Shown here: positions 2,790 through 42,700 of the stretch, piece by piece
Layout of the letters: each line of letters begins with the position of its first letter
Numbering within the stretch: position 1 is the first letter of the stretch
Source: Malacoraja senta
Taxonomy: Eukaryota
Length of the DNA: 64,000 bases
Assembly (NCBI GenBank): GCA_038087875.1
Contig: CM075988.1
Location: forward strand, 23,624,001 to 23,688,000
Direction of reading: 5' to 3'
Translations under genes and position numbers: made by a program
Notes under the pieces: model-generated
Told to the model about the DNA's origin: nothing
Seen by the model: the letters and a program-made list of their open reading frames with translations, nothing else
Database searches by the model: none

Positions 2790-3194
2790 CAGCATCCCTC
2801 TTCCCATCAGAACTGCTGCCTCCATCGACTTTTTTTAAGTCGAGACTTAAAACTCATCTTTACTCTCAAGCCTATCTTGACGTCCTCTGAGGGAGGGCTA
2901 TATGTATGTATTTATGTATGTACTTAATCTATGAACCGGGGTGGAAGATTGCAACCTTCACGTTTTTGAAGGATTGCGCCCTGTTTCGACTAATGCAATC
3001 AACTCGACGTGCACAAACAGAAGATCAAATAGTACAAGTTGTCCTACAACTTTAGGCTGTGCACGCCACACGAAAGAAGAAGAAGAACCACTGTTGTATA
3101 ACGTTAGTACCTCCACCAATGTAAAGCACTTTGGTCAACGAGAGTTGTTTTTTAAATGTGCTATAGAAATAAAAGTGACGTGACTTGACTTGAC
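2790..3194 (+). mobile_element. L2 LINE 3' end, interrupted by retroposon copy A
   Basis: Similar to the reverse complement of 11907-12110; tgtaaagcactttgg...aataaaa(gtgac/ttgac)n. Confidence 0.7.
2938..3084 (+). mobile_element. ~140-nt HDV-ribozyme-headed retroposon, copy A (nested in an L2 3' end; P3 disrupted by an insertion)
   Basis: Starts GGGGTGGAAGATTGCAACC, ends (AAG)n; gaacc on both sides. Confidence 0.8.
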
Positions 3195-4378: not shown

Positions 4379-6675
4379 CTGAGTGACTCCAGCTATTTGT
4401 ATCTATCTTCTGATGTTCATAAGTTCTAGGAGCAGAATTAGACCATTTGTGTTAAAGAAGGAACTGCAGATGCTTGAAAATCGAAGGTACACAAAAATGC
4501 TGGAGAAACTCAGCGGGTGCAGCAGCATCTATGGAGCGGAGGAAATAGGCAACGTTTCGGGCCGAAACCCTTCTTCAGATGGCCCATCACGTCCACTCCG
4601 CCATTCATTCGTGACTGATCTATCTTTCCCTCGCAACCCCATTCTTCCACCTTTTCTCCATAACCGCTGACACCCTACCAATCCAGAATCTATCTCTGCC
4701 TTAAAAATATCCACTGACTTGGCCTCCACAACCTTCTGTGGCAAAGAATTCCGGGGTTATGGGGAGATGTCAGGGGAGAGGGAAACGAGATATGAATTGG
4801 TCCATTGTTGGCTGGGAACGAATTGATAACGAAGGGATACAAACGGGGAAAGTGGCAAGTGGACTTGGGTGGGAAGGAGAGGGAATACAAGGGCTACTTG
4901 AAGTTAGAGAAATCAATATTCATGCCACTGGGTTGTAACTTGCCCAGAAACCGACTTAAACATTAATTCTAGGATAGGCACATTAAACCTACATATTCCT
5001 GGCCATAGGCTAGCAGCCGGTGCAATGCCGAAAAGATGCACTCTTTCGGATCCTCTCTTTCGAATGAAATATTAATCTCGGATTCCACCCGCTCTCTCAA
5101 ATCGGTGTAAAATATATGGGGTTTTACTATCAGAGTATCATAAATACTTAGCAGATTAAACAGCAGCTCTAGAGTCTCCCCATCAACCATGTGGCTTTTG
5201 AACACTAAACTATTGACGTCTGTAGTTGCACTAAGGACTTTGGACTTTTATGCACAAGTATTGGGTCATTAATTTGTTTGTTTGGTTATTATAAGTTATC
5301 TATGAGCATTGTGTTCACAGGTCTGCCATGCTGCTGCAAGTAAGAATTTCATTGTTCCGTTGTCAGTACATATGACAATGAAACACACTTGCTTCTCGAG
5401 AGTTAGCGTATCGTCAACGGCCTTTTTCTGAAGGAACGTTGCCTGATCTCTTGGGAATGGATATTTCCAACACTTACTCTTTTTATATCAGATTTCCAGT
5501 ATCTGCATTCTGATTTTCAATAATGGATGAATTATCCCTCATGCCCACCCTACATTTATATAAATTTCATAATAACCTAGGCGGTGTCACGGTTGCAACT
5601 CATTGGAGCTTGCCGTGCATAATTTGGCTTTCATATCTCCTACAGCAGCATTATGTGGGAAGGTTGGAAAGCGCAGGCTACATCTACTGGGCATTTAGAA
5701 GAGAAAGAGGGAACCTAATTGAAACTTACAAAAGGATCTTAACAGAGTGAATGTCAAAATATGTTCTCCTATGGGAGAATGTGTGTGTCACAAATATGTG
5801 ACCCCAGGTTTACTTTGGACTTTGGGGATTCAGCAGGAAAACAGGCCCTTCAGCCCACCGAGTCTGCGCCGACCAGAGATCATTCTGTACACCAGCACTA
5901 TCCTACATACTAGGGAACATTTTTAAAAGTTTGCCTTAGCCAATTAATCTACAAACCTGTGCATCTTTGGAGTGTGGGAGGATACTAGAGCACAAGGAGA
6001 ACGTACACACTCCGTGGACAGCATCTGGTGGATCAAACCTGGGTCTCTGGCGCTGTAAGGCAGCGACTCTACCATTGCAGGTGGACACAAAAATGCTGGA
6101 GTAACTCAGCGGGACAGGCAGCATCTCTGGAGAGAAGGAATGGGTGACGTTTCGGGTCGAGACCCTTCCTCAGATTCCAACTACCATTGCACTGCCCCTG
6201 GTTCCACAAAGTAAATTCTTCCACTAAAGGTTGTGCATCTTCAGAACCCTCTTCCTGTACGGCAGAGAAAGTCTCGGCACATTAAGACAGAGTTAGGTAA
6301 GTAATAAAGGGGATGAACTCATTTATGCAGGAATACAGGAATGCCTAGTTGTGGTTACACTCAAATCAGCAATGATCTGATTAAATGATGGATCAGGACT
6401 ATTCCTAGTTAACAAATTCAGAGGGCACATTGCCAGCAAGTGCGACTTTTGGTTTGGATGGTTTACTTAAGCAAATGATACTTGCTTTTTAATTGAACTT
6501 TTCAACTCATTATCCCATTTCAGATGATTATTTCTTCAAACCCTCCAAACCTGAAGATTTTAAATTGAACCCTATTTGAATGAGATGTTAAATCACAGCT
6601 TCATCTGGTCAATTGGATGGACATAAAATATGACGCATATGAGTTTTCACTGACAAGGGTTTTACTAAACAAGGT

Positions 6676-6813
6676 CTTCTTCTTGCATACGGCGTGCACA
6701 GCCTAAAGTTGTAGGACAACTTGTTCTATTTGATCTTATTTGATTCTGCACGCCGGGTTGATTGCATTCATCGAAACAGGGCGGACCACGTGAAGGTTGC
6801 AATCTTCCACCCC
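6676..6813 (-). mobile_element. ~140-nt HDV-ribozyme-headed retroposon, copy B
   Basis: 10-bp TSD taaacaaggt (6666-6675, 6815-6824); fold intact but J4/2 is UGAA. Confidence 0.85.
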
Positions 6814-10939: not shown

Positions 10940-13900
10940 CTGGAAAAATGGAAGAAAGAAAATATGTTAAATACACGACTATGAAGTCACATCACCCTGG
11001 ACACACTCCCATTTCATAATGTGGCACCAGGAGGAAGGTATAAGAGTCTGAAAGCTGTGACCTCCAGTTTGGAACAGCTTCTTCCCAACAACCACCAGGC
11101 TATTGAACACTACAAACACTAACTAAACTTCAAACTACCTTGGTTGCACTGGGGACTTCGGGCTTTTGTTTTACTTTGCTTTGCCCTATATTGTTTTTTT
11201 ATTAATGTATTGAACTTTATTTTGTTTGTTTATAGGTTATCTATTTGGTATTGCATTTACAACACCTGTGTTGCTTCAAGCAAAATCTTCATTGTTCCGT
11301 TTCGGTACATATGACAATTAAATACACTTGATTTTGTTGATTTTCCATTTTCTATTTACAGGAGAATATTGACTTTGAGAATCTTTTATTTCTCTTGTCC
11401 AGCTACATTATTTTGCTCAAATCTCTAAAACTGCCCTGCCCGTACGAAGTCACAAAAACTAACCGATCCTCACCTTCACTAGATTCATTCTCTACTGGGT
11501 CTGGTAATGTTGCCTCCTCACCCTCAGAAGTGGCTTTTTGAGTTGGGCTTGCTGTAGGTGGAGCCTCTGCAGGTTTCGCTTCTTTACTTTCTGTTGCGAA
11601 GAAATATTCCCATTAGTCAATGTCATTGCAGCTCGTGCAAAATAAATGCGTCAGAGAAAATCCTAAAATTCACAATGAGATTCGATTTTTTTGCTTTTCT
11701 CTTTGCAGGGTTATTTCTCTCTCAGGTTCCTTATCAGTACGGCAAAGAACAAAGCAAAAAGCTCCTTGTCATAATTCAGTAAAACAGATGTTCCATCCCA
11801 ACTCAACTCGATTTCCCACTGGACCATTATACACTCTGTTCTCAAATCTCTCCTCTGCTCAATGAGATGGAAGGTCATTAGTTTGTTTACTAAATTCATA
11901 ATTTCTCAAGTCAAGTCAAGTCACATTTATTTATATAGCACATTTAAAAAACAACTCTAGTTGGCCAAAGTGCTTTACATTTGTTATAAGAATAGCACAA
12001 ACAAAACAAACTACATACATATGTACATGTAGCCCTCACTCAGAGGACGTCAGGAAAGGCTTGGGAGTATAGATAAGTCTTTAGTCTTGACTTAAAAGAG
12101 TCGATGGAGGGGGCAGTTCTGATGGGAAAGGGGATGCTGTTCCACAGTCCAGGAGCTGCAACCGCAAAGGCCCGGTCGCCCCTGAGCTTATGCCTAGACC
12201 GTGGGAAATTCAGCAACCCCAAGTCGGCCGATCTGAGGGGCCTGGAGGTGGAGTGGTGGGTGAGAAGACTTTTTATGTAGGTGGGGGCAAGCCCATTGAG
12301 GGCTTTGTAGACATGGAGGATCTTGAAGTTTATACGGAACCGCACAGGGAGCCAGTGGAGAGAGGCCAGGATCGGGGTGATGTGGTCCCTTTTTCGGGTG
12401 CCCGTCAGGAGTCTTGCTGCGGCGTTTTGGACCAGTTGCAGGCGGGACAGGGAAGATTGGCTGATGCCAGTGTAAAGGGAGTTGCAGTAATCTAGGCGGG
12501 AGGAGATGAATGTGTGGATGATCTTTTCCAGGTCATCAAACTGGAGGAATTGTTTTATTTCAGCTATCGTCTGAAGCTGCCAAGAAGCTAGCTTTTACCA
12601 TGGCATTGACTTGTTTGTCAAATTTCAGTGCTGAGTCAAATATCACGCCAAGGTTTTTGACGTGAGGTTTGAGTAGTGGGGTAAGGCTTCCAAGGCTGCC
12701 TGCTATCATTTTGATTGAGTCCGAGGGGCCGAGAAGGATGACCTCAGACTTACTCTCGTTTAGTTGGAGGAAGTTCTGGGCCATCCAACACTTTATATCC
12801 TCGAGGCAGTGGGTAAGGTTAAACAGATTTGATTGGTTTTTGGGCTTCAGGGGGAGATAGGGTTGTGTATCGTCTGCGTAGCAATGGAAGGAAATGCCGT
12901 GCCTTTCAATGACTTGGCCTAAGGGGAGCATATACAGGGAGAAGAGAATGGGGCCAAGGATGGAACCTTGTGGAACCCCACAGCATAGATTAGCTGGGGA
13001 GGAGAATGAGTTGCCTATGTTAGTCGAGAAACTCCCACCTTTGAGGTAGGAGATGAACCAGCTCAGGGCAGTGCCATCAATACCAACCCCATACCGGAGA
13101 TGGTCAATTAGGATGGTGTGGTCGACAGTATCAAATGCTGCGCTGAGGTCAAGAAGGAGCAGAATTGCACGGTCGCAGTGCTCCCTGATTACTGGAAACA
13201 CGGGTTGAATCTTATTCATGGTCTTTCTCCACACAACCCAAGGTTTGATCCTTCAGTCCTGCCAGAGTGAATAGTGCTCTTCTCCCCCGCACACTCCTTT
13301 TCAAGGAGCTTACCTGTGTCTTCCTCTGTCTCTTTCACAGGTGGTATATTCTTGTCGCTCTCAGCGGCTGTTGCATTCTTCTCCTCCTGCGTTGCATTTT
13401 GTGCTTCTTGTGTTGTAGTATTCTTACTTTTCCGTGGCTTGGGTTTAGCAAACTTGGCTTTATTAAGCAAGTATTTGACTTCTCTATCCAAGAGAGCCAG
13501 TTTTGCTTCTATGTCCTTAGAGAGCAAGACGGGCGTTTCTGTGGGCAGTAGATTATTCTGTTCCTTTACAGTTGTGTTCTTCCATGTCTGCATAAACAAA
13601 TTGTAAATCAAGTGTAACAATCAACGAATATATGAGGATATCTCATCTCATGTAGTTTGCCTTTGAATATGTCTGGTATATATTACATACATCATGTATC
13701 ATCCATATCAACTTCTCCTGACATTTCAAGGAGTATAGTTTTGGATATAATTCATCCTCTATCACATGTGTAGGAAAGAATTGCAGATGCTGGTTTAAAT
13801 CGAAGTTAGACACAAAATGCTGGCGTAACAGCTTCGGCTCGGCTAGCCTGGTATGTCCTCACTGGTTATCTACATGAATAACTTCTTCTCCCAGCTTCCC

Positions 13901-16900
13901 AAGATCATCAGATCATCAGATCATGAATGTAGTACAGCAAGATCCACAGCATTCACCCATAGCAACTGTGAATTTAGGGACTGAGGGAGCATGAAGCTAC
14001 AAATGTGCAGTTATATCAGTAAGCATCCCTTCAATCACCATTTGGGACAAATTAGCTCTTCATTTTCACAGCTGCCAAGAAGCTAGCTTTTACCATGGCA
14101 TTGACTTGTTTGTCAAATTTCAGTGCCGAGTCAAATATCACGCCAAGGTTTTTGACGTGAGGTTTGAGTAGTGGGGTAAGTAGTCGGGAAGAAAATAAAT
14201 TCAAGATTTTGATAGAGAGTCATTAATCTACAAACCATGCAGTTCCATCCGCTTAAGTAGAACATTAAACTCCAAGGACTGAATAAACTAGGAAAACATT
14301 TTTCAACTCGAACAGAATCCACTCAGTTTGGCAACTGTGTCTTCTGTGAGAGTGAGATTTGATTATACTTACAGAGGTCTCCGTGATGACCTTTTCCAGA
14401 GTGTTTAATTCCACTTCCGTGAAAATCTGATCATCTTCTGGTAAGAGACTTGCTCCTCTGAAGTCACAAACATAAGAAATAGTTAAGAAAGAGAAAGTGG
14501 TCGAAAGGTCTGACAGAATTTCATAAAATTATGAGAGTCGGAATCTTTATCCCCAGGATGGAAACGTACAGTTTTATGTTCAATGATAATAGTAATAATG
14601 AGGTCAGATTTGGAGGATCACATGCTCATGAAACCATCCCCCAATAGCAATTAGTTAAAATATCAAAGAAATGAAAAGACTGGCCAGTGAAGAGTTCCCT
14701 GCCTCGCTTCAATACTCACTTGAGGAAGATGCTGGAGTGATTGAGCATGCTGTCTAATGCGGCCAGGCGATCTGGCCACTTCCTCCGCTCTTCTACTTTA
14801 AAAAAGAGATCCTTGCACAGTTTGCGTAGCTCAGAAAGCTTAGTTTTCAGTTCCTAGATGCAGGAAACAACAATTCATTGGTTTTGCCCAGTACAGTCCA
14901 ATATCTCCATGTACAAAATAAGTACAACATCAAACTGACTGATGCAGCATGGAAACAGGCTCTACTGCCCACTGTGTCTATTGATCACCTGGTATCCCAC
15001 TTTTGCATTCACTCCCAATACACTTGGGGCAATTTTTACAAACAGTTTTGAGAAGCGAGAGGGAACCAGAGGACACGGAGGAAGCCACATGGTCACAGGG
15101 AGCATGTACAAACTCTACACAGGCAGCACCCAAGATCAGGATTTAACCCATGTCTTTGGCGCTGTGAGGCAGCAGCTCTACCAACTGCACCACCGCTCAA
15201 TTTTTTTCTCATTGTTAAATAATGAACAGGACTTCATCCAAGATCCAAAAAGGTAATAATGCCACTCTGCATAAAACATGGTACCAAAATAAATATTAAA
15301 TCAGGCTGTAGTTTAGAACTAAGACTCACACTTGTTTCATGTTCTAGGCGCATTAATGTGTTGTGGGTCAAAGCTGCCAGTTACTAGGATGGTTAACTAA
15401 CCAGTATCAGAATTTAAAAAGCAACTAAAGAAAACATTAAACCTTTGTAGTGGCAGTATATCCATCTTCATCCAGCCAGTTGGAAGCCGCACTAAGTTTA
15501 CCAGAAATCTTGTCACGTTCATCTTGAGTGGAGACCAGCTGATATTCTTCTTGGTACAGCTTGTCCTGCAAAATAGCAATAAAGGTCAGCTATTGCAGGA
15601 TTAAATTAGATCCAAACCACATAAAAAGTCATTTAATTCTTCCCAGCGACAGAAGTTACCTGGTCTTTGCTGATGTAGTTGAATATTGGAACAGAGCTGG
15701 ACTGGCATAGAGGCCTGAAGCTGTGTAACAATAAACAACCTGTTGCTAACGCCACTGGAACTTAAACTATCAAACCTTAGAACAGAGACTTCTATCAGCT
15801 GGCAAATTAAAATCTTAATGGAACAACAGCAGTTTTAAGACTCTGAAGAATTCTCGTCAAGATTTATTATTTAATGGCTTACCAATTACAGAAAGGGCAC
15901 TACCATTCAATATAAAAAGTTAAACAAAAAAACAGTACTGTTAACATACTGTTTACTTCTTCAAATCCATTCTATAAATTTGATGGATAAATACTCTTGA
16001 ACAGGAAACTGGTTCAGAATTTAATTACTGATATCGCACATTTATCACTATGTAATTTCAGTTATTATTCCAACTGTTTGAAATGTGTTACTAATTTCCC
16101 TTTGCAAGTAAACATCTAAATGACATATCCCCTTTCCTTACAAGAACATGTTTAGTTTTAGTTTTAGGCATGGAAGCAGGCCCTTTGGCCCACCGAGTGA
16201 ACGTCAACCATCGATCGCCAGTTCACACTAGTTCTATGTTTTCCCATTTTCGCATCCACTTCCTACACATTAGTGGGAATTATCAGATGCCAATCAACCT
16301 GCAACCCCACACTACCCACTGCACCACAGTGCTGCACAATTGTGTTATCGTAATCACAAAACTGATACTAATTAGTGATTTTTTTTAAAAGTTGCTTTGC
16401 CACACTTTACCAGATTTGCAGTCTAAGATTAAATGTTTAAACCAAACACTCGCTCAATATCACCGACAATAATGTGGTCAAGGAAAGAGCGTTCATGTCG
16501 CGGCCCTGTTTCCACCAATCTTTCCACCACCGAAGCACAAGACAGACACCATTGTATGCAGATGCCGAGAAGTGTGTTCAGCTCTGGCTGAACAACTTCC
16601 AATCTTGCGTGTGGACTCGAAAAGAAGAAGACTGACAATAATGCTCTGTGGCTAAGTTGTAAACATAAACTAAGGTCCCTAAGAGAAACAAAAAAGTGTC
16701 ATACATTAGGGACATAAAGATCTGAAACTTAAGCAAGAGTCAAGAGTGTTTTATTGTCATATGTCCAGGATGGGACAATGAAATTCTTACTTGCTGCAGC
16801 ACAACAGAATATGTGAATATGTAAACATTGTATATAACGGGGGAAGAGAAAAAAAAAGTTCAACAAATAACAAATATAGTGCAATAATAATAATAATAAT

Positions 16901-23021: not shown

Positions 23022-26000
23022 CCAGAGTGTTTCATTAACAGTGCATCACCAAGAAAACATTGGTTTCATCTTTGACCTGGAACAATACCATTCTGTTTCC
23101 ATCGAACTACCATGCTATCTAACCTTCTGAGTGTGTCTGGCATTTTCTGATTTGTGAACTTGTGGTTACGGGATACCATTGACAAGCCAAGATGTTGAAT
23201 TGAAGCTGTGAAATGTATAAACCACCATGTTAGGCACATTTAAAATACCAAGTACACATCTGATCACTATAACAGGAAGGATGTGATATCAAAACCTGCT
23301 TGAACACCTGGACTGTTGATGTCTGTAGAGAGAACAGAGTTAGCTTAAGTGATGTTTTTAAACTTTATGTGGGAAAATTTGACATGTTGATGTTGTTTCA
23401 CTGCCACATTCTTTGATCATACTGTAGATACCTTAGTAAAAACTTCCACATTAAAGAGTCACCAACCTTCCTTCCCATTATTACCTGAGGTCATGTTCAC
23501 AGAGGAAGCCCATGTCCCCATAATTAACAAAGAACTCAAAGTCATCAGTGTAACGATTGAAGGTGATAACTTTGCGCTGGGGATATGGGGACATTCGCTG
23601 AAATAGCACACGCTTGTTATGTTTAATGTTTTTTACACCATCCTCTTCAATCGATCGTATAAATTCAACCTGCCAGGCAAAACACCAAAGTTAAAGAAGC
23701 CAAGAGAAAAATCACAGACTAATCACATATTCTGGGTGAAAAGTCTCTTGACAGGTGCTATGACAAGGCAAAAAAATCATGAATGTTTTTTTTAATTTAA
23801 AGTATTAAGGAAACAGATGTGTCCAATGTACTCTTAATGTTTTCTTCCAGTCCATTAACTAGAAACTTTCACTTTATTTCCTATTTAGAGCAGCTATACT
23901 TGGCGAGTTAATGCAGGTACAAATGTGCTAAAGTGGCCTCCTCCCACCATTTGGTTTCCAGCTGCAAGTTATGTTAACAGCACTGATCGGGCAATACGCA
24001 ATTCTAGTTTCAGATTTTTATGACTTAATTCCACCACTGAAATTGGAACCTTCTACATACAAGTGCTTAAGACACTCCTGTGGATGTATGTGGCTGCAGT
24101 AGACGATGTACCTGAATAGGATAGAGGGCTGCATCACGGATGAGGAAGGGTTTGACCTTGAAGGCTTTGCTCAGGGCAGCAGCTTGATACACTGCTCCCA
24201 TTGATGCTGCCTCATCAGCATTTATATTCTTTCCCAACTCCTTTCTGTAAAAAGACACAAAAACACAGATATTGACAAAGACAGCAAAAAAAACTAAAAA
24301 GGAAATCACATCAACCTTGCTATTTTCTTTCAATAATAGGTGGCAATGTTATGGTCTATTCAGAGGACAGGTTCATTTCTGCACAGTAACCACACTGAAG
24401 TCACCAACTGAAGGCCAGTTTTCTAGAGAAAATTCTGTAGAAAGGGAACACATCTACTTTTGAATCCCCAATTAAGCACCATGCAAATGCAAATCTCTTC
24501 AAGTTTCAAGTACTTCCCAAAATATAATCAAGATGGAGAAATAGTTCACATGTAGGATGAAACAAGTGCCTTCAGCATGCCACCAGCCAGCAGTGAGCTC
24601 CGCTGTTAAATGGTTAAGGGATGATCTAACATAAAGTATTCAGAGATAATGATATTAAAAGTCGGAAAATAATTTGCCACAAACAAAAAATGATAACCAT
24701 ACCATTTAAGAACAAAATCAGGAAGCAGTAAAATCAAGTTGCAATTTACAAAGGATAGCAGAATCTAGAACTTGTGTTTCAAATACAGGGTCAAGGATGG
24801 CAATCAATTGAAGTAATAATAATAATAATAGATTTTATTTATATAGCGCTAGCATGGATACATCAGTTACAAATTTCTAGCAGTACAGCCAGGTGGCTTG
24901 TGGCGGCAGCAATTGACCTGCAATGGTTATCCATCATCAGGCACTTGAATTAGTTTCTTTAATTTATTCAAACCCTTCATAATTTTAAATATTTTCCTTT
25001 CCAATCCTCTCTCTCAATCTCAGTTTCTCTAGTCTAATCAATCACATTACTAAACCATTCATCTTTGCACTAGTCTCTTGCACTTCAAAGGCACCTCCTC
25101 CCTAATTGTGGTATCCAACCTGAAACAAATATTGTCCAGGAAGCTTTACCTTTCAAATTTAGTGTCAGCTGCAAACTTCAGTATTGCACCACTTTTCCAA
25201 ACCCAAGTAAATAATGCCGATGAGGAACCTTGTCCAAATAATGAGCTTTTGGGTAAATTATGAAAATGAACCAATCCAAAAACCGCAATTCTTTTCCATG
25301 GCATTAATTTTTTTTTTACCTACACTGCTAGTACACTTTATATGCAATGGACTTACATTTTATTAACAAATCTATGATGTGTTTTTTCATGTTTTAAAGT
25401 CCAAATGCACCAAATGTAGGTATATGGAGGGTAGTAAATGGAGGATAGTAAAAGTTTCTTTAGGTATGTGAAAAGGAAAAGATTAGTTAAGACAAATGTG
25501 GGTCCCTTGAAGACAGAAACAGGTGGATTTATTTTGGGGAACAAGGAAATGGCAGATGCGTTTAACAGGTACGTTGGTTCTGTATTCACTAAGGAAGACA
25601 CTAACAATCTACTGATGTACTAGTGGACAGAGGATCTAGGGTGACGGAGGAACCAAAGGAAATTCACATTAGTCAGGAAATGGTGTTGGGTAGACTGATG
25701 GGACTGAAGGCTGATAAATCCCCAGGGCCTGATGGTCTGCATCCCAGGATACTCAAGGAGGTGGCTCTAGAAATCGTGGATGCATTGGTGATCATTTTCC
25801 AATGTTCAATAGATTCTGGATCAGTTCCTGTGGATTGGAGGGTAGCTAATGTTATTCCACTTTTAAAGAAAGGAGGGAGAGAGAAAGCAGGGAATTATAG
25901 ACCAGTTAGCCTGACATTGGTGGTGGGGAAGATGCTGGAGTCAATTATTAAAGGTGTAATAGCGGCACATTTGAATAGCAGTAACAGGATCGGTCCAAGT

Positions 26001-29000
26001 CAGTGTGGATTTACGAAGGGGAAATCTTGCTTGACTAATCTTCTGGAATTTTTTTGAGGATGTAACAAGTAAAATGTATAAGGGAGAGCCAGTGGATGTA
26101 GTGTATCTGGACTTTCAGAAAACCTTTAATAAGGTTCCACACAGGAGATTAGTGGGCAAAATTAGAACACATGTTATTGGGGGTAGGGTATTGACATGGT
26201 TAGAAAATTGGTTGGCAGACAGGAAACAAAGAGTAAGAATTAACGGGTCCTTTTGGGAATGGCAGGCAGTGGGGAGTGGAGTGCCGCAAGGCTCTGTGCT
26301 GGGACCGCAGCTATTTACAATATATATTAATAATTTACATGAAGGAATTAAAAGTACCATTAGCAAATATGCAGATGACACAATGCTGGGTGGCAGTGTG
26401 AACTGTGAATAGAATACTATGAGGATGCAGGGTGACTTGGATTGGTTGGGTGAGTGGGCAGATGCATAGCAGATGCAGTATAATGTGGATAAATGTGAGG
26501 TTATCCACTGGTGGCAAGAACAGGAAGGCAGATTATTATCTGAATGGCGTCAGTTTAGGAGAAGGGAAAGTGCAACGAGAACTGGGTATCCTTGTACATC
26601 AGTCACTGAAAGTAAGCATGCAGGTAAAGCAGGCAGTGAAGAAAGCTAATAGCATGTTGGTCTTCATAACAAGAGGATTTGAGTATAGGAGCAAAGAGGT
26701 CCTTCTGCAGTTGGACAGGGCACTGGTGAGACATCACCTGGAGTATTGTGTGCAGTTTAGGTCTCCTAATTTGAGGAAGGACATTCTTGTTATTGAGGGA
26801 GTAGGTTCACAAGGTTAATTCCTGGGATGGCAGGATTGTCAAATGATGTAAGAATGGAATGACTGGGCTTGTATTCACTGGAATTTAGAAGGATGTGAGG
26901 GGATCTTATAGAAACATATAAAATTATTAAGGAATTGCACACGCTAGATGCAGGAAACATGTTCTCGATGTTGGGGGAGTCCAGAACCAGGTGCCACAGT
27001 TTAAGAATAAGGGAAAGGCCATTTAGAACTGAGATGAGGAAAAACCTTTTCACCCAGAGAGTTGTGAATTTGTGGAATTCTCTGCCTCAGAAAGCAGTGG
27101 AGGCCGATTCACTGGATGCTTTCAAAAAAGAGTTAGAGGGCTAGCGGAATCAAGGGATATGGGGAGAAGGCAGGAATGTGGTACTGATTGTGGATGATCA
27201 GCCATGATCACTTTGAATGGCGGTGCTGGCTCGAAGGGCCAAATGGCCTACTCCTGCACCTATTTTCTATGTATCAACCACCTTTTACCTCATTATTCTG
27301 GTTAGACAACTACAAGATTCCCTCAGTAAATCCTTGCTGCCTCTCCTTAACCAATGCAAACTTGTCAAAAGGAGGATATTCATACAGAGACTAGAAACAA
27401 AGATAAGACGGAAACTCACACCACGTCAAAGAGAAAAATGGAACTCTTACTTTCCAACAGCTTTTAGTAAGGCCTCCTGTACTTTAGGAACTCGTGTTGC
27501 TCCACCCACCAGAATCACCTGATCAATGTCTTCCTATAAGAAAGAATCCTTTCAGAAAATATAGCATAAAAAAAGTCAGAGATTCAACTGAGACATTGCA
27601 CTGTAAGGAACCCATGATAAATTATTCTACGTATAAGTTGCATTTTAAATGGACTGAGCATTGATACTATGCATAGGGATGAATAGTTCAGGTCCCCTTG
27701 ACTTGTTACATGGCAATTACACCAATTCCATTGGGAGAACATTAAGTAGGTTACCACTGAAAAAAAGTGACATTAAATGAACTAAACCAAAAACACATAA
27801 GCTTAAATCTCAAACACATTCCTGATTTATTTAGAAGCACTCACCATTTTCATCTCAGCTATTCTTAAGGCCTGATGTACAGGGTCTGCAACTTTCTCAA
27901 ACAAATCACTGCAAAGCTCCTCAAATTCTTGTCTTGTTACTTTGGCCTTGAAGTCAATATCATCAAGTAGTCCCTCGACCTATAAGGAAATGAAAGAAGA
28001 ATTTTAAAAATTCAATCACTGTTGGATCGATTTAACCTAACTGGCAAAGAGAGTCAGAGGTGAGATTAAAATGTTTCACATAGCATGTTATATTTAATGG
28101 GTGGTGAAAACATATCCAACAGCATTTTCAAAAGACTAGCAATATTACAAGGTCAAAGCAAGAATTTTGAACTGATTATTTAAATCTATCATATAAGCAT
28201 TACAATTTGAATGGGCTCCTCCAACAGATTTCAATACTTATACCATGATTAAAAGAAACACAAAACATTTAAGCTGGGGATAATAAGAAGCCCTGCATGA
28301 GTTCAAGAGGCAGCAAAACTAGTATATTTACCTGTGCTGTGTGATCGAAATTTGCACTTAGTACCGTTTTCACACGATTTGCTTCTTTCCATAGCTTGGC
28401 CATTGCTCTTGGATGCTCACGAACATCTTTGGATGTTTTCTTTTGTCCATTGAAGATTTTGGCAAGGTGATCCAGCAGGCGTAGTTCCATCTCAAGTCCA
28501 CCCAGATTTCGATTAAAACTGAAGTACAAGAATAAAAAAGGAAATGTTTCAACTTCAGCTGATATTCCAGTGTGTTAAAACGTTGAGAGTTCTGCATGGT
28601 GCTGAGAAATTGTACAGAAGCGCTCTCTTTTTAGAGAGAATGCTGAAACAAAGCCACCATTGCCCACTGCTCCTCTCCGTCCAAACTGTGTTCTCTGCAG
28701 TCGATATAAATTTGCTGCCACATTACAATTGTAATATTTAAAATGTACTTCACAGCATATCAAACACATTGTATGAGAGTCCGATATGCACTTTATAATG
28801 CAATCAAGCAAGACTAACAGGAAATTAACTAATACTGAATTTTTAAAAATTCTAATTATCCATCTACTTCTCATTGTGGCACATAGAATTATTTTATAGT
28901 TATTATAGTCATAATTATTTTATAGTTAATTTAGATACCCAATTTGCCTCCTGATCTTGTAGACCTGAAGCCAGCTCATAACAATATGGATTCCAGGCTT

Positions 29001-32000
29001 AGAACTATGCAGTGTATTGTTTCATGAAGCTTCATTTAAAACATCAACCGTAATTACCAATTTAAACAGGCAGCGACTCAATGAAGAAAGAGCGGTTGGA
29101 AAAGTTTAGAAGATGGGAGCCATTGGTTTTTGAGAATTTTAGTGACTGGGATGGGGTTTGAGTGGAAGGTGTACCACACCCTATTGACAAGAAAGATGAT
29201 TAAAATGGGAACAAGGTTGAGGAAGTCAGTTAAACATCTGACGAATTAAGACAAACATCTGTTCTAATATATTATGTTACTTGAACATGGTATCTTTTTT
29301 ACCATATTGTTACAGAGGCAGAAAAAGGGACTAAATGAAACAGAAATATGATTACTGCACAAATTGAGTGGACATCATCTTGCAAAATGACTTTACCTGA
29401 AAATTTATGACTATGAAATTTAAGGTGAAATTGTAAAAGCCGTGATGCAAAAATAACGTTTCCAGTTTAGTGTTGAAAAGGATGTCCTGTCCAACAAAGC
29501 CTTCAGCTTCTATCGAAGAGGGAGACTAGTTAAGCTACCTATGTTTTCAGTCTCAGCCATTCCACACTCCAGTGCTTTTCCCCATCCACCAGTTATTTTT
29601 CCAGATAGAACCTAACCAATTGCAAACTATTCAATTCAGGGATATCTTCATGTTCACAAGTAAATCAACCCAACTGGGGTTATAGTTCAACAAGTACCAT
29701 TTGTTCAATAACCCATCACTCTTTACTGCCTTCTTTTAAAATGGTTCAAAAGTAGCTAGTCAGTCCCCATCTCCTCATGTATGCCAATCTTCTTCTTCTT
29801 GCGTATGGCGTGCACAGCCTAAAGTTGTAGGACAACTTGTTCTATTTGATCTTTTTGATTGTGCACGCCGGGTTGATTGCATTCGTCGAAACAGAGCGGA
29901 CCACGTGAATGTTGCAATCTTCCACCCCATGTCTGCCAATCAACCTTGCTAAAGCTGCAGTCTTCACAATGACTTTTTCATAGAATACCACTCTCACACA
30001 AAGCCCACATTTACTCTTCATTGTACCGTGTGTAATATCCATTAAAGAGTCATTGAAAATAGAAATTTACCCAATCCCTCTGATCTGGAGCTGGGGCTGT
30101 GTTCCCCAATCCTTTGTCTTTGTCGTCATGTAAGTAACAATGGTGGCAGTGGTGCTGCTCGACCCCATGTCGTAAAACATCACATTCTGGAAAAGTAACA
30201 GATGTCAGCTTTAGGCCTTAATGTTTCACAGATAAAAATAATCTAAAATTATCTGGTTGGCTTCATTCCAGCAGGCAAAACTTTGAAACTCATTTTATAT
30301 CAATCATTGAGTTTAGTTTAACTACAGCATGGAAACAGGTCCTTTGAACTACCGAGACTACATTGACCATCAATCACCTGTACAATAGTTCTATATTATC
30401 CCAGTTTCACATCCTACATACTAGGGGCAATTTACAGAAGCTTATTAACCTACAAACCACATCCTGCAACCTATATTTCCTCATTGTCTACTCAAAAAGC
30501 TCATAGTAACTGCAAAATAAATTTCTATTTGCATTAGCACTTACGTTGATTCTTGGCACTTGTACTCCACCTTACCTGGGCTGTGGCATTAATGTCCTTC
30601 CTCCGAAACACACCATAGTTCAGGGCTACAGCTGTGTTATCATTGATGAGTTGAAGGACCTTGAGGCCTGCCATCTGAGCAGCTTGTACAACTGCCCTCC
30701 TTTCCGCTTGGTTAAAATAGACAGGCACTGTGATCACCAGGTCCTTAATTGGTTGCTCTGCAGGAAAAAGAAGGAATATACCGGTGCACATCAGAGAAAC
30801 ACAGTTCCAATTTTAGGTCAATGTCATGTCAGAATCAACACGATCCTTTATAATCAACTCAGGGGAAACTAAATTCTAGTTGAAGGGAGAAAAATAAAAA
30901 TCAGACCAACCTGCAAAATCTTGAGCCAAAATTCTTGAGTAATTGAGAACCATCCCCAATAATTCCTCAGGAGAATAATATAATTCGCTAGAAATAAAAA
31001 CACAAAAATAGTTAAATATTTAGTGAGAAATAGTTAAAACCATGATAAAACAAAAACATTCTCAGAATCTAACCAATAATGTTTGAGCAGATAATCTAGC
31101 TTTTTCATTATACGATCATATCCCAGAATTATGAAAATCGATTAAGATGAGCAGATGTGTGTTCTTCAGTGGTAAAAGCAGTGTTAGCGATTAGAAAATG
31201 CTTAGGATACCACTCAAAAGTAAGCAAATTAAATGAAAAAAAGTCAGATCGAGACAAACTGCACCAATTTGTCACAACATTAGATAGCCCTTTGTCGGGC
31301 ACCAATAGCAAGGAAATCTTTACTCATTTGTGAAAAGCGAATACTTACTCAGACACTTTGTAGAGAACAGTTCCTCGTGACTCGGCTGCCACCAGCCGGT
31401 GCTCGGGAAAACGTTTCCTGTACAGCTCCACTTGTGGGTTTTCTATCAGTTTTCCCAGGAGATTCTGGAGGTAGCGGAATACAACCTTTGGATTCTTCGC
31501 TGACTGTGGATTGCAACCAAAACCCAGCTTAGACCATTCATCATAGCTGTTTCCCAAGAGCCTACACAAACAGCACCTCAGGCTGTGAATCATACACTGG
31601 TTAGACATCAAGCCTAAATCTTACCAGCACAAATCATATAGAATGTTAATGTACAAATGAAAAATCTATCAAGCTCTCTGCCATGTAATTGTGGTGACCT
31701 TGGGCAAATCATGTAACATAACATCTCAAAGCCCAATGTACAAATATGGTGGCGCAGCGGTAGAGTTGCTGCCTTACAGCGAATGCAGCGCCGGAGACCT
31801 GGGTTCGATCCTGACTACGGGTTCTGTCTGTACGGAGTTTGTACGTTCTCCCCATGAACTGTGTGGGTTTTCTCCGAGATCTTCGGTTTCCTCCCACACT
31901 CCAAAGACGTACAGGTTTGTAGGTTAATTGGCTTGGTAAATGTAAAAATTGTCCCTAGTGGGTGTAGGATGGTGTTAATGTGCGGGGATCGCTGGTCGGC

Positions 32001-39726: not shown

Positions 39727-42700
39727 CTGTGGACAGATAATAGATAAACAAGAAACCAATTGGAACAACACAGCTAGAAAGTGGTTAGTATAACCTGTAA
39801 CTCCAACTCCAACTCCAATTTCAGACTCCAACTCTTGCAGAACTGACCAGAGTTAAAGGATGAAAGACTACATGGATAGGACAAGTTTAGAGGGATATGG
39901 GCCAAACGCAGGCAAGTGGGACTAGTGTAGATGTGACATGCTGGTCAACGTGGGCAAGTTGAGCCGAAGGGCCTATTTCCACGCTGTATCACTCTAGTAA
40001 CTGATTAACATTAAAGCATTTCAAAAGGAGCTGGTACCAGATTTGGAAAGAAAACTAACCTGCACGTCATATTCTCCACCCCCGCCTGGTTCACTGTCAC
40101 CATTCACATCATACTGCAAAACCAAAACAGGTTACTCAGGTAAAATGTGGTCAACAATGGCAAAGCTCACTCCTTGTCAATGAGGAACCTATACTATTAA
40201 GTGGGATGAACTCAAGATTAGACATTTTGCTTGGGCAGCTTACAGCACCTCACATTTCATTTTTGCAGTTTACAACCCAGCGATATGAACGTGGATTTTC
40301 TCCAATTTCAAGTAACCCCTCCCCATTCCCCCAAGTATATTAAACATCCAGTGTGCATTAAACATCACCCCAGGAAACCACCCGATCCTCACATCACTGC
40401 ACCGTAGCCCTGAGTTCTGCAGGCTTTGCATATCTGATTCTATGTAAATTCGGAACCATGGGACAGAAAAGGAATGTGTGTCCAGTAGAGAGACTGCACA
40501 ATCACCGAGGAAGGAGAGGTTTGCACAGCACAGTTCAACAAGAGGGACGCAGCCCACACCTGTCCAGCACAAACATTTTAACACATTTTAACAGTTGTTC
40601 AAACCACAACAAAAATCAATTTCACCTTCTCAAACATGGCTTTGTGCTTTCTGTACAAAACCAAATTTGCTCGAATCCAATTCAGTGCTTGTTCCAATGC
40701 AATTCTCTTACCGTTTTCAGAGTTAGACTTTGCCAGACCTACGTTGTCAAAAAAAGAAAAATTCAAAAAGAATAAAGCGTTCAGGTCATATCAAGCCAAT
40801 CCAGTCAATTCAAAGACCAAGGTCCTCCCCTCGCATTCTCAAAGCATGACAGAAGGGAAAAGAAAGATTAACAAAATCTATTCAAATTATTTAGTCGAGG
40901 ATAAACACTTGATGATTCCTACATGGACAACGTGAGCCACAACAGCCAACCGGTGGGGGTGGGAGATTGCAACCTTCACCTGGTCCGCCCTGTTTCGACG
41001 AATGCAATCAACCTGGCGTGCACAATCAAATAAGATCAAATAGAACAAGTTGTCCTACAACTTTAGGCTGTGCATGCCATACGCAAGAAGAAGATGCGAA
41101 CCAGTGAAGGGCTCGCTGGTGCAGATAAAATCAAACTCAAATAAAATTTTGCTTTACCTTCGATGATGATTTGCTGGAGTGGAGGCCAGGCATTGGGGTA
41201 ATCCCACTGCTCACCACTCGGCACCAGTGAAGTTGGAATTCCATTCCTATACCAAAGGAGACGATGGTCCTGAAAAGTGCAGCACAGATCTCAATAAAGG
41301 CACACGAGAAAAATACACACAGCATGCAGTTTATTTCCATCGCCCATCGTGCCACTCCTGGCTGCGAGAAGCATCCATGCTGAGCATCATCTCCAATAAC
41401 TCTAGCTGGAATGCACAACAGGCAGTGTTAGGAACCATCGACTCTACCTCTTTCCAACAGCTGGTACCAAAAGGAGCGAACGCAGGCCAAATCAATCTCC
41501 CCCATCCACAACATGCAGATCTGCAACTCCACCCCCCCCCCCCCCTCAACCACCCGTCCAAACAACCCACCAACAGGGCGACACAGTGGTGCAACAGTAG
41601 TGTTGCTGCCTTACAGCACGAGACCCAGGTTCTATCCAGACTACAGGTGCTGTCTGCACAAAGTTTGTTCGTTCTCCCTATGACCTCATGGGTTTTCCCT
41701 GGGTGCTCCAGTTTCCTCCCACACTCCAAAGACGTATCGGTTTGTAGATTCATTGGCTTCAGCAAGTTGTAAAAATTTCCCTAGTGTGTGTAGGTTAGTG
41801 TATGGGGTGATCGCTGGTCGGCGCTTACTTGGTGAACTGAAGGGCTCGTTTCCGCGTTGTATCTCTAAAGTCTATAATAAAGTCTAAAGTAAACAGTCCA
41901 TCCAAATACCAATGGCTAAGGTGTTCTGGACTTGATCTTGCACCAAATGTCATTTTATTTTTCATGTATCTGTACACTGCGGATGGCTTGATAGTAATCG
42001 CGTATAGTCTTTCTGTGGTTAGCTTGCAACAAAAGCTCTTCACTGTACCGAGTGTGTGTAGGTTAGTGTACTGGGTGATCGCTGGTCAGGGCTTACTTGG
42101 TAAACCTTAAACTGGTTTGTGTAAGAAAGAACTGCAGATGCTGGTTTAAATCGAAGGCGGACACAAAATGCAGGAGTAACTCAGCGAGTGAGGCAGCATC
42201 TCTGGAGAAAAGGAATGGGCGACGTTTCAGGTCGAGACCCTTCTTCAGACTTAAACTGTGGTTCCTCGGATAGCAAATAACTGGAAATGACGACATCTCT
42301 CAAATGCCCACGTGATACCACAGTCAACGGCATTTGCTCACTCAAGGCTGAAGGCTGCCCTTTCCCTTCTCTACCCATCTACACAAGACGCATAACAAGG
42401 GTAAAGTAATGGGAGTAGGATTACCTCTAGGTATTGAATCACCATCTCTGTGGGCTGTCCTGGTTCCTGTTCAACAAAGCATTCAGCCCAGAGAGGAGCC
42501 ACGTTGGAAGCATAGAATGCATCATTGCTCTTGTTATTCATTAAATTAAAATCAAACCAAATTCCTTGTTGATCGTCCCATAAAACTTCATGCACAGCAT
42601 CAATTCGTCTGTCCCTGGCCTCCTTATAGAACTGGGCCTTTGCAGAGTTACCTGAAAGACAGACAATTGCATTGGGGGAGCTGGTATTGGCAGAGGGATG

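What the first reader, a model, noticed from the sequence alone, without database searches (positions are those of the whole stretch)
40956..41095. A ~140-nt retroposon family headed by a minimal HDV/CPEB3-like ribozyme instead of a Pol III promoter
Seen: four dispersed copies (2938+, 6813-, 29928-, 40956+). Each has a flanking direct repeat (5-13 bp) and an (AAG)n tail, and each starts at the same G. The first 54 nt fold into the nested double pseudoknot: P1 GGGGUGG/CCGCCCU with a G1.U wobble, P2 GAUUGCA/UGCAAUC, P3 ACC/GGU, L3 UUCACGU (three copies; UUCACCU in copy D), J1/4 GU, only UUCG-A where P4 would be, and J4/2 CGAA. No tRNA A/B boxes are present. Established: L3 UUCACGU, the CCCU-GU junction and CGAA are the motifs of the mammalian CPEB3 ribozyme, and HDV-like ribozymes process the 5' ends of R2, RTE and ingi/L1Tc retrotransposons. 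Inference: a non-autonomous element that cuts itself out of read-through Pol II transcripts and is mobilised by a LINE, possibly Vingi/ingi-like given the ...CATACG-AAGAAG end. Identical 5' ends at G1 are what self-cleavage predicts.
Basis: partly seen in the sequence, partly recalled or inferred. Interest (0 to 1): 0.9.

Follow-up and report, generated by a model that had tools for sequence, protein, structure and literature searches.

The report
Ribozyme-headed retroposons and their LINE partners
A short jumping element present in thousands of copies begins with a miniature self-cutting RNA fold instead of a promoter, and a related jumping gene in the same genome carries a close look-alike of the mammalian CPEB3 ribozyme, hinting where that ribozyme came from.

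Summary
All four ~140-nt copies exist, with target-site duplications, (AAG)n tails and the same first G. At least 3,768 copies genome-wide keep the first 29 nt exactly.

The first 54 nt draw an HDV-type nested double pseudoknot without P4. Comparison, not chance, supports the fold:
- A second SINE-like family (one copy at window 16474-16631), two ~3.1-3.3 kb APE+RT LINE families of this genome, and related LINEs on metagenome contigs all start with the same layout.
- Their P1, P2 and P3 sequences differ, yet every pair is kept (P2 38 of 38 pairs).
- L3, J1/4 and the C-N-A-A junction stay conserved.

Each SINE shares head type, tail and the last 7-9 nt with one LINE.

LINE-B's head scores 56-61 bits on Rfam's mammalian CPEB3 ribozyme model (cut-off 35). 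Family 2's P4-less head scores 30. The finding's own family reaches only 19 bits on the HDV model.

I found no Pol III features.

Self-cleavage is untested and the LINE clade (RTE or Vingi) is undetermined.

The kind is known: ribozyme-processed non-LTR elements and their deletion derivatives. The P4-less vertebrate variant and the CPEB3 link appear new.

The parts
40956..41094 (+). Family-1 retroposon, copy D (the finding). Head 40956-41009, structured body 41010-41084, (AAG)3A tail 41085-41094. TSD AACCGGTG 40948-40955 / AACCAGTG 41099-41106.
   Evidence: L3 reads UUCACCU and position 8 is G, so this copy has probably decayed.
40956..41009 (+). P4-less HDV-like ribozyme head of copy D: P1 1-7/30-36, P2 10-16/48-54, P3 17-19/27-29, L3 20-26, J1/4 37-38, linker 39-43, J4/2 44-47.
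   Evidence: (passes the strict descriptor).
2938..3087 (+). Family-1 copy A. The head is disrupted by a rearranged stretch after L3. J4/2 is CUAA. TSD GAACC.
6675..6813 (-). Family-1 copy B. Intact helices, but J4/2 is UGAA (C44 to U). TSD ACCTTGTTTAT / ACCTTGTTTAG.
   Evidence: (Rfam HDV_ribozyme 19.4 bits, E 0.73).
29788..29928 (-). Family-1 copy C (C19A, C33U). 13-bp TSD GATTGGCAGACAT / GATTGGCATACAT.
16474..16631 (+). Family-2 retroposon copy (G2 to U). Head layout: GGGGUC AA GGAAAGA GCG UUCAYGU CGC GGCCCU GU UUCCA CCAA UCUUUCC, then a structured body and an (AAG)3 tail. 12-bp TSD.
   Evidence: A consensus-like copy scores 30.0 bits on the Rfam CPEB3 model.

Best explanation
The finding is one copy of a non-autonomous, LINE-dependent retroposon. 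Its 5' head is a miniature (P4-less) HDV-family ribozyme descended from the 5' ribozyme of a single-ORF APE+RT LINE.

Proposed cycle (inferred):
1. Copies have no promoter and are transcribed as parts of longer host transcripts.
2. The head folds into the nested double pseudoknot and cuts just 5' of G1, giving every RNA the same first base.
3. The LINE's reverse transcriptase primes on the (AAG)n end, copies the RNA to G1 and inserts it, leaving a 5-14 bp target-site duplication.

The genome holds two such pairs:
- LINE-A with family 1: P3 ACC/GGU, 3' end CAT-N-CGC(AAG)n.
- LINE-B with family 2: P3 GCG/CGC, 3' end GAC-N-CGAA(AAG)n.

Shown here: the copies, TSDs, tails, uniform 5' ends, the conserved and covarying fold, the LINEs with the same fold at their exact 5' ends, and Rfam-level identity of LINE-B's head with the CPEB3 ribozyme family.

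Inferred: catalysis, read-through transcription, and which LINE moves which SINE.
For: **Family size and ends**
- The 5' 29-mer occurs 3,768 times exactly genome-wide, against 0 for the reversed control.
- The TSD abuts G1 in 34 of 34 family-1 copies and in 18 of 22 family-2 copies; of the other four, one is offset by 2 nt and three gave no TSD.

**Fold kept through change**
- In five lineages (family 1, family 2, LINE-A, metagenome LINEs L136 and L102), P1, P2 and P3 are fully paired with different sequences.
- P2 is paired at 38 of 38 positions, against 7-20 of 38 in slid registers.
- For P1+P3 in alignment A6, 97% of cells pair, against 86% in shuffles (0 of 500 as high) and at most 63% when slid. 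Four of 10 pairs change on both sides.
- Family 1 and LINE-A share 27 of the first 38 nt. All three P1 differences (4/33, 5/32, 6/31) are compensated.
- Subfamily variants keep pairing: C5 goes with G32 in 9 of 12 listed copies, family 2 has a GGGGCC/GGCCCU form, and LINE-B has a 7-bp GGGGAUC/GAUCCCU.

**Unpaired core conserved**
- L3 is UUC-N-CGU (UCCACGU in L102); J1/4 is GU in four of the five lineages and GG in L102.
- J4/2 is C-N-A-A in families 1 and 2, LINE-B and L102, and in 5 of 6 scorable copies of the L136 group. LINE-A has CAGA/CGGA, and L136 itself reads CUUA.

**Putative catalytic C**
- 1,360 exact copies carry C against 106 with U.
- C accounts for 96% or more of depth in contigs of four other organisms.

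**LINE partners**
- LINE-A has RVT_1, an (AAG)n tail, and a head at the exact 5' end of its full-length copies.
- LINE-B copy L171 is 3,140 bp with APE and RT domains, an (AAG)3 tail, and a TSD abutting G1.
- The two ORFs are 37-40% identical.
- In the related metagenome LINEs, homology between copies starts at G1.

**Rfam**
- LINE-B scores 61.3, 59.7 and 56.2 bits on RF00622 (cut-off 35).
- Family 2 scores 30.0 bits and L136 scores 25.2 bits.

**No Pol III head**.

**Literature**
- P4 is dispensable in known active minimal HDV-like ribozymes (PMC10879173, passages).
- RTE, Ingi and R2 LINEs are known to carry 5' ribozymes and to spawn ORF-less derivatives that keep the 5' end (PMC5786205, passages).
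Against: - No cleavage assay was possible, and there is no read-level RNA evidence. The only public runs are contigs, which cannot show RNA ends.
- The finding's own family reaches only 19.4 bits on Rfam HDV_ribozyme (cut-off 50) and 12.9 bits on HDV-F-prausnitzii. Copy D gave no HDV-family hit at all.
- LINE-A's head gave no Rfam ribozyme hit at E<=10.
- The P4-less forms described so far are almost all from phages, so activity of a eukaryotic P4-less form is an extrapolation.
- A family-1 subfamily with A5 and A32, an A.A mismatch in mid-P1, recurs at dispersed places (7 of the 12 A5 copies among the first 100 rows listed). So a perfect P1 was not strictly needed for spread.
- The SINE bodies show no similarity to either LINE beyond the ribozyme core and the last 7-9 nt plus tail, so the LINE-SINE pairing rests on little sequence.
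- The 34 of 34 figure comes mostly from the best full-length matches of a similarity search and is biased toward complete copies. Only the 4 window copies and 1 incidental copy are unselected.
- All four window copies have head mutations, as expected of dead copies.
Confidence: 0.75

Rival explanations
1. Relic head. The SINE heads descend from a LINE ribozyme but no longer cut after losing P4. The uniform 5' end would then come from something else, for example the head acting at the DNA level as an internal promoter (as Pr77 does in L1Tc), or from reverse transcription of a defined transcript.
For: - P4 is absent and Rfam scores are below the cut-off for families 1 and 2.
- The A5/A32 mismatch subfamily spread.
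- A dual promoter/ribozyme is documented for L1Tc/NARTc (PMC3383444, abstract in the listing).
Against: - The core positions needed for catalysis stay conserved in the P4-less heads: L3, the G1.U pair, and C in J4/2 (1,360 against 106).
- P1 and P2 were re-paired after divergence from the LINE head.
- P4-less HDV-like ribozymes are active in vitro.
Confidence: 0.17
2. An ordinary Pol III SINE whose head is a degenerate small-RNA gene. The pseudoknot would be incidental.
For: - 5' ends are uniform.
- There is no TTTT run inside either family.
Against: - A-box and B-box matches are no better than shuffles. For family 1 they have 3 mismatches each, reached by 822 and 643 of 1000 shuffles; family 2 is worse.
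- ARAGORN finds 0 tRNAs in the window.
- Rfam at E<=10 gives no tRNA, 5S, 7SL or snRNA hit.
- The same head sits at the 5' end of protein-coding LINEs.
Confidence: 0.03
3. A chance resemblance to the HDV fold in an otherwise unexplained repeat.
For: Short helices with G.U pairs arise easily. My descriptor finds about 1 spurious site per 90 kb.
Against: - The fold sits exactly at base 1 in two SINE families, two LINE families of this genome and at least two groups of metagenome LINEs, with compensatory change throughout.
- LINE-B passes Rfam's curated cut-off by more than 20 bits.
Confidence: 0.01

Closest known systems
HDV-like ribozymes at the 5' ends of non-LTR retrotransposons (R2, R4, RTE, Baggins, L1Tc/ingi)
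   Same: The nested double-pseudoknot ribozyme is the first sequence of the element, with the cleavage site at the 5' junction. The elements lack their own promoter and are released from co-transcripts (PMC6765202 passages; PMC3774820 passages).
   Different: The heads here belong to a CPEB3-type sequence lineage. They occur in what is probably a fish genome, judging by the named relatives of its LINE proteins. The SINE versions have lost P4.
ORF-less 'bipartite' non-autonomous LINEs: NARTc/RIME/SIDER of trypanosomatids, R2 SIDEs, RTE-N and Vingi derivatives
   Same: These are short elements that keep the parent LINE's 5' ribozyme end and 3' end and are moved in trans (PMC4035085 passages; PMC5786205 passages).
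   Different: Families 1 and 2 keep only the ribozyme core (P4 deleted, helices re-paired) and 7-9 nt plus the tail of the LINE. Their structured bodies (z -4.0 and -4.8) match neither LINE.
Mammalian CPEB3 ribozyme (Rfam RF00622)
   Same: LINE-B's head scores 56-61 bits against a cut-off of 35. In the alignment, by my count, about 47 of 67 ribozyme positions equal the model consensus, including P3 GCG/CGC, L3 UUCACGU, CCCUGUCA and UGCGAAUUCU, and most other differences are compensated pairs. The positions numbered U20, C22, A23, G25 and C57-A60 in PMC4836649 correspond.
   Different: CPEB3's ribozyme is a single conserved intronic copy in mammals. Here the sequence is the 5' end of dispersed, recently active retrotransposons in another vertebrate. 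Family 1 itself does not hit the CPEB3 model.
Minimal (P4-less) HDV-like ribozymes, including theta ribozymes of gut phages
   Same: The double pseudoknot has P4 replaced by a short linker, at about 50-60 nt. These forms are active in vitro (PMC10879173 passages).
   Different: That paper reports them almost only in bacteriophages, often beside tRNAs. Here they head eukaryotic retroposons.
Schistosome Sm-alpha SINE-like elements with hammerhead ribozymes
   Same: A short retroposon that carries a self-cleaving ribozyme (PMC6765202 passages).
   Different: A different ribozyme class, with a Pol III promoter and tandem arrangement.

Membership tests
HDV-like (delta-like) self-cleaving ribozyme fold | Nested double pseudoknot in the order P1-P2-P3-L3-P3'-P1'-J1/4-(P4)-J4/2-P2' | tested here: met
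   All pairs form in five lineages, and they covary.
HDV-like (delta-like) self-cleaving ribozyme fold | G1.U wobble closing P1 at the cleavage site | tested here: met
   G.U in 10 of 10 rows. One metagenome LINE copy (L102) has A1-U.
HDV-like (delta-like) self-cleaving ribozyme fold | Catalytic C in J4/2, just 5' of the P2 3' strand | tested here: met
   J4/2 reads CGAA, CUAA or CCAA, and CAGA in LINE-A. C against U is 1,360 against 106 exact copies.
HDV-like (delta-like) self-cleaving ribozyme fold | P4 helix | tested here: not met
   Families 1 and 2 have a 5-nt linker instead. P4 is present in LINE-A, LINE-B and the metagenome LINEs. P4 is known to be dispensable.
HDV-like (delta-like) self-cleaving ribozyme fold | Site-specific self-cleavage | not testable with these tools
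Rfam RF00094 HDV_ribozyme | Score at or above the gathering cut-off (50 bits) | tested here: not met
   Copy B scores 19.4 bits. Copy D gave no hit. The window scan at gathering threshold gave 0 hits.
Rfam RF00622 CPEB3_ribozyme | Score at or above the gathering cut-off (35 bits) | tested here: inconclusive
   Met by LINE-B heads at 61.3, 59.7 and 56.2 bits. Not met by family 2 (30.0 bits), L136 (25.2 bits) or L102 (14.6 bits). Family 1 gave no hit.
Rfam RF00622 CPEB3_ribozyme | Single conserved copy in an intron of the CPEB3 gene of mammals | tested here: not met
   The sequence is the 5' end of dispersed repeats.
Classical Pol III SINE | Head derived from tRNA, 5S or 7SL, with internal A/B boxes | tested here: not met
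Bipartite ORF-less non-autonomous LINE (SIDE-type) | Retains the 5' end of the parent LINE | tested here: met
   Family 1 and LINE-A share 27 of 38 nt with compensated P1. The family-2 head resembles the LINE-B head.
Bipartite ORF-less non-autonomous LINE (SIDE-type) | Retains the 3' end of the parent LINE | tested here: inconclusive
   Only 7-9 nt plus the (AAG)n tail are shared (read by eye). There is no BLAST-level similarity.
   No named reference sequences were available. The architecture fits both clades: one ORF of about 1000 aa with APE and RT, no RNase H among the precomputed Pfam hits, and 3.1-3.3 kb in length.

The most novel reading that the evidence does not exclude
The mammalian CPEB3 ribozyme is not a de novo intronic invention. 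It would be the domesticated 5' end of a LINE, or of its SINE, from the lineage found here. That lineage is still active in this genome (LINE-B), and it has also produced the smallest natural eukaryotic HDV-type ribozymes, the 52-54-nt P4-less heads of families 1 and 2.
Probability: 0.5. Interest if true: 0.85.

Novelty: new variant of a known kind. Interest (0 to 1): 0.72.

Why it matters
- It gives a clean natural example of a promoter-less retroposon whose only recognisable functional module is a 54-nt ribozyme. That is a compact model for how ribozyme processing replaces a Pol III promoter.
- It places P4-less minimal HDV-like ribozymes, so far reported almost only in phages, in thousands of copies in a vertebrate-type genome.
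- Active LINEs carry a sequence that passes the curated CPEB3-ribozyme model. That makes the origin of the CPEB3 ribozyme, and the wider question of how HDV-type ribozymes spread, directly testable by comparative genomics.
- My searches of the held library found nothing in print on such a link: 'CPEB3 ribozyme'+retrotransposon+origin, 'CPEB3-like'+ribozyme and Vingi+ribozyme.
- Key papers were not held and could not be read: Ruminski 2011, Webb 2009, Webb and Luptak 2011, Kojima 2011. Repbase and Dfam could not be consulted. The elements may already have names there.

Tried and rejected
**RNA evidence**
- The look-up of sequencing runs returned only Logan contigs.
- Laying four runs showed that family-1 sequence, bounded at the element's ends, is present in runs of four other coded organisms (761, 1020, 113 and 17 contigs).
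- Contigs cannot show RNA starts. Many run on past G1 into unrelated sequence. This says nothing for or against cleavage.

**Alignment**
- MAFFT on whole heads of all lineages misplaced P2' and the P1 gaps.
- I therefore used a gap-free 38-nt alignment and my own segment parsing.

**Descriptor scan of metagenome loci**
- My strict descriptor found none of the metagenome LINE heads, because those copies carry single decay changes.
- Relaxed scans did find them.

**Apparent U at the catalytic position**
- Eleven of my 34 sampled copies had U there.
- This was bias from using copy B as the query. Whole-genome counts are 106 against 1,360.

**Other dead ends**
- LINE clade: the PDB search and source names gave no clade information.
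- The L136-type 5' UTR is not present in this genome.
- Earlier scan notes held nothing on this genome.
- I did not build a covariance model, because family copies would have swamped any genome search.
- Walking to a full-length LINE-A took several fetches because most copies are 5'-truncated.
Full report
**1. The observation**

They align over about 137 nt at 83-100% identity. Each is flanked by a direct repeat that ends exactly at the first G, and each ends in (AAG)3-4. Every window copy carries at least one change in the head:
- D: L3 UUCACCU and A8G.
- B: the J4/2 C is a U.
- A: a rearranged stretch after L3.
- C: C19A and C33U.

This is what one expects of dead insertions.

**2. Size of the family**

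The window lies in a 1.94-Gb assembly.
- The first 29 nt of the element, with A or G at position 8, occur 3,768 times exactly. The reversed control occurs 0 times.
- An internal 29-mer occurs 1,360 times.

So the 5' end is kept at least as often as the interior.

In 34 copies examined (4 from the window, 29 from the best similarity hits and 1 incidental), the target-site duplication (median 12 bp) abuts G1 in 34 of 34. That sample is biased toward complete copies.

Contigs from runs of four other coded organisms also hold the element, bounded at the same two ends.

**3. A second family, and why it matters**

An (AAG)3 run at window 16622-16630 led to a second retroposon, family 2. It is about 157-168 nt long, with 766 candidate places in the genome.

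Family 2's body is unrelated to family 1's. Its first 52 nt nevertheless have the same layout with different helices: P1 GGGGUC/GGCCCU, P2 GGAAAGA/UCUUUCC, P3 GCG/CGC. The unpaired parts are the same: L3 UUCACGU, J1/4 GU, a 5-nt linker and CCAA. The TSD abuts G1 in 18 of 22 copies.

**4. The LINE partners**

*LINE-A.* A third (AAG)n-tailed repeat seen by chance in a fetched locus is the 3' end of a LINE.
- It has RVT_1 and weak APE hits.
- Candidate places: 1,381 for the 3' end, 95 at 2.4 kb from the 3' end, and 69 for the 5' end. This is the usual 5'-truncation profile.
- Its length is about 3.3 kb.
- Of 13 real 5' ends aligned (a 14th row was a stretch I mis-chose), five start at GGGAGAG. 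The rest are 1-5 nt short or altered.
- That start is again an HDV-type head: P1 GGGAGAG/CUCUCCU, P2 UGUCGGCA/UGCCGAUA, P3 ACC/GGU, L3 UUCUCGU, GU, a 40-nt P4 region ending in a hairpin, and CAGA.
- Family 1 and LINE-A share 27 of the first 38 nt. The three P1 differences are all compensated.

*LINE-B.* A pattern search for heads with a different fifth base (333 hits, control 0) turned up a further element, LINE-B.
- Copy L171 is 3,140 bp.
- It has one reading frame of about 1,006 aa, broken by two stops.
- It carries APE and RT domains and an (AAG)3 tail.
- A 10-bp TSD abuts G1.
- Its ORF is 37-40% identical to LINE-A's group.

*Pairing of SINEs with LINEs.* By eye, each SINE shares the last 7-9 nt before the tail with one LINE: CAT-N-CGC for LINE-A and family 1, GAC-N-CGAA for LINE-B and family 2. 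Nothing else matches.

**5. Comparative support for the fold**

Relatives of the LINE protein on metagenome contigs have the same head about 190-210 nt upstream of the ORF, again with other helices. L136 has GGGGAGG/CCUCCCU, GACAGAU/AUCUGUC and GCC/GGC. L102 has AGGCGG/CCGCCU, GCUACUGAU/AUCAGUAGC and ACG/CGU. Homology between copies begins at G1.

Across five lineages:
- P2 is paired at 38 of 38 positions, against 7-20 of 38 in slid registers.
- On a gap-free alignment of 10 heads, P1+P3 pair in 97% of cells, against 86% in shuffles (0 of 500 as high) and at most 63% when slid. Four of 10 pairs change on both sides.
- J4/2 is C-N-A-A in families 1 and 2, LINE-B, L102 and 5 of 6 scorable copies of the L136 group. 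LINE-A has CAGA/CGGA and L136 itself reads CUUA.
- The J4/2 C outnumbers U by 1,360 to 106.

My strict descriptor finds about one unrelated site per 90 kb. Chance cannot put the fold at base 1 of all these elements.

**6. Rfam**

| Element | Rfam model | Bits (cut-off) |
|---|---|---|
| Whole window, at gathering thresholds | all | no hit |
| Family 1, copy B | HDV_ribozyme | 19.4 (50) |
| Family 1, copy D | HDV family | no hit |
| LINE-A head | any ribozyme | no hit at E<=10 |
| Family 2 head | CPEB3_ribozyme | 30.0 (35) |
| L136 | CPEB3_ribozyme | 25.2 (35) |
| L102 | CPEB3_ribozyme | 14.6 (35) |
| LINE-B heads | CPEB3_ribozyme | 61.3, 59.7, 56.2 (35); E 3e-16 to 2e-14 |

In the alignment, by my count about 47 of 67 ribozyme positions equal the model consensus. 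These include parts not dictated by the fold (AGAA...UUCU in P2, CA...UG in P4). Most other differences are compensated pairs.

**7. What it is not**

There is no tRNA, 5S, 7SL or snRNA signal. A/B-box matches are no better than shuffles.

**8. Mechanism**

The best reading is a promoter-less, ribozyme-headed, LINE-dependent retroposon.
- It is transcribed within longer RNAs (inferred).
- It is cut 5' of G1 by its own head. This is inferred from the fold and from known relatives.
- It is copied by the LINE enzyme from the (AAG)n end. This is inferred from the shared tails and TSDs.

The SINE bodies are strongly structured (z -3.98 and -4.75; 0 of 200 shuffles as stable). The LINE-A 3' UTR is not (z +1.66). 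What the enzyme recognises is therefore open.

**9. Evidence against**

- There is no catalytic test.
- P4-less forms are known almost only from phages.
- A family-1 subfamily with an A.A mismatch in P1 spread to at least seven places.
- The LINE-SINE pairing rests on few bases.

**10. Known or new**

Ribozyme-processed non-LTR elements are established, and so are ORF-less derivatives that keep the 5' end. The kind is therefore known.

What I could not find in the held library:
- a vertebrate SINE-like family headed by a P4-less HDV-type ribozyme;
- any statement that the CPEB3 ribozyme has retrotransposon relatives.

Several key papers, and Repbase and Dfam, could not be consulted.

Named relatives of the window's LINE proteins are ray-finned fishes and, for the ribozyme-bearing group, also arthropods. 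The host is therefore probably a fish and not a mammal (inference). Human DNA holds ancient RTE and Vingi fossils (PMC5753468), so an ancestral insertion into the CPEB3 intron is plausible but untested.

**11. Verdict**

- It is a new variant of a known kind.
- The CPEB3 link is the most interesting lead.

Noticed in passing
window 11915-13620 (-): Fragment of a different, L2-like LINE. It has an RVT_1 hit (73 bits) and a 3' end with GACTT-type short tandem repeats. It is not related to the (AAG)n elements.
   Followed up: partly
window 2880-2937 and 3088-3140: Family-1 copy A is inserted into a sequence that closely resembles the 3' UTR of the L2-like LINE at 11960-12060 (compare).
   Followed up: no
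window 16140-16330; also L171:3230-3560 and flanks of L024, L025, L028: Another abundant repeat, containing GGCCCTT(C/T)GGCCCA. Its identity was not examined.
   Followed up: no
L076:123-154; G000:C8:937732-937815: There are tandem duplications of the first 16-30 nt at the 5' end of a LINE-A copy and of a LINE-B copy (three repeats). They may be traces of template jumping at the cleaved RNA 5' end.
   Followed up: no
L018:1501-1780: A family-1 copy is inserted inside the hairpin of an older family-2 copy. Family-2 copies are also more diverged (90-96% against 96-98%). Family 1 is therefore the younger family.
   Followed up: partly
L170 (G000:C2:72571985-72572215), plus two further places: The first ~97 nt of LINE-B (the complete P4-containing, CPEB3-type head) are joined to an unrelated downstream sequence at three places. 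This may be a third non-autonomous family.
   Followed up: no
window 25605-26057 (+): A weak RVT_1 match (26.9 bits, below the cut-off) from another decayed retroelement.
   Followed up: no
G000, first 100 rows: The form with G at position 8 of family 1 (as in copy D) is the commoner one, at roughly 60 of the 100 listed.
   Followed up: no
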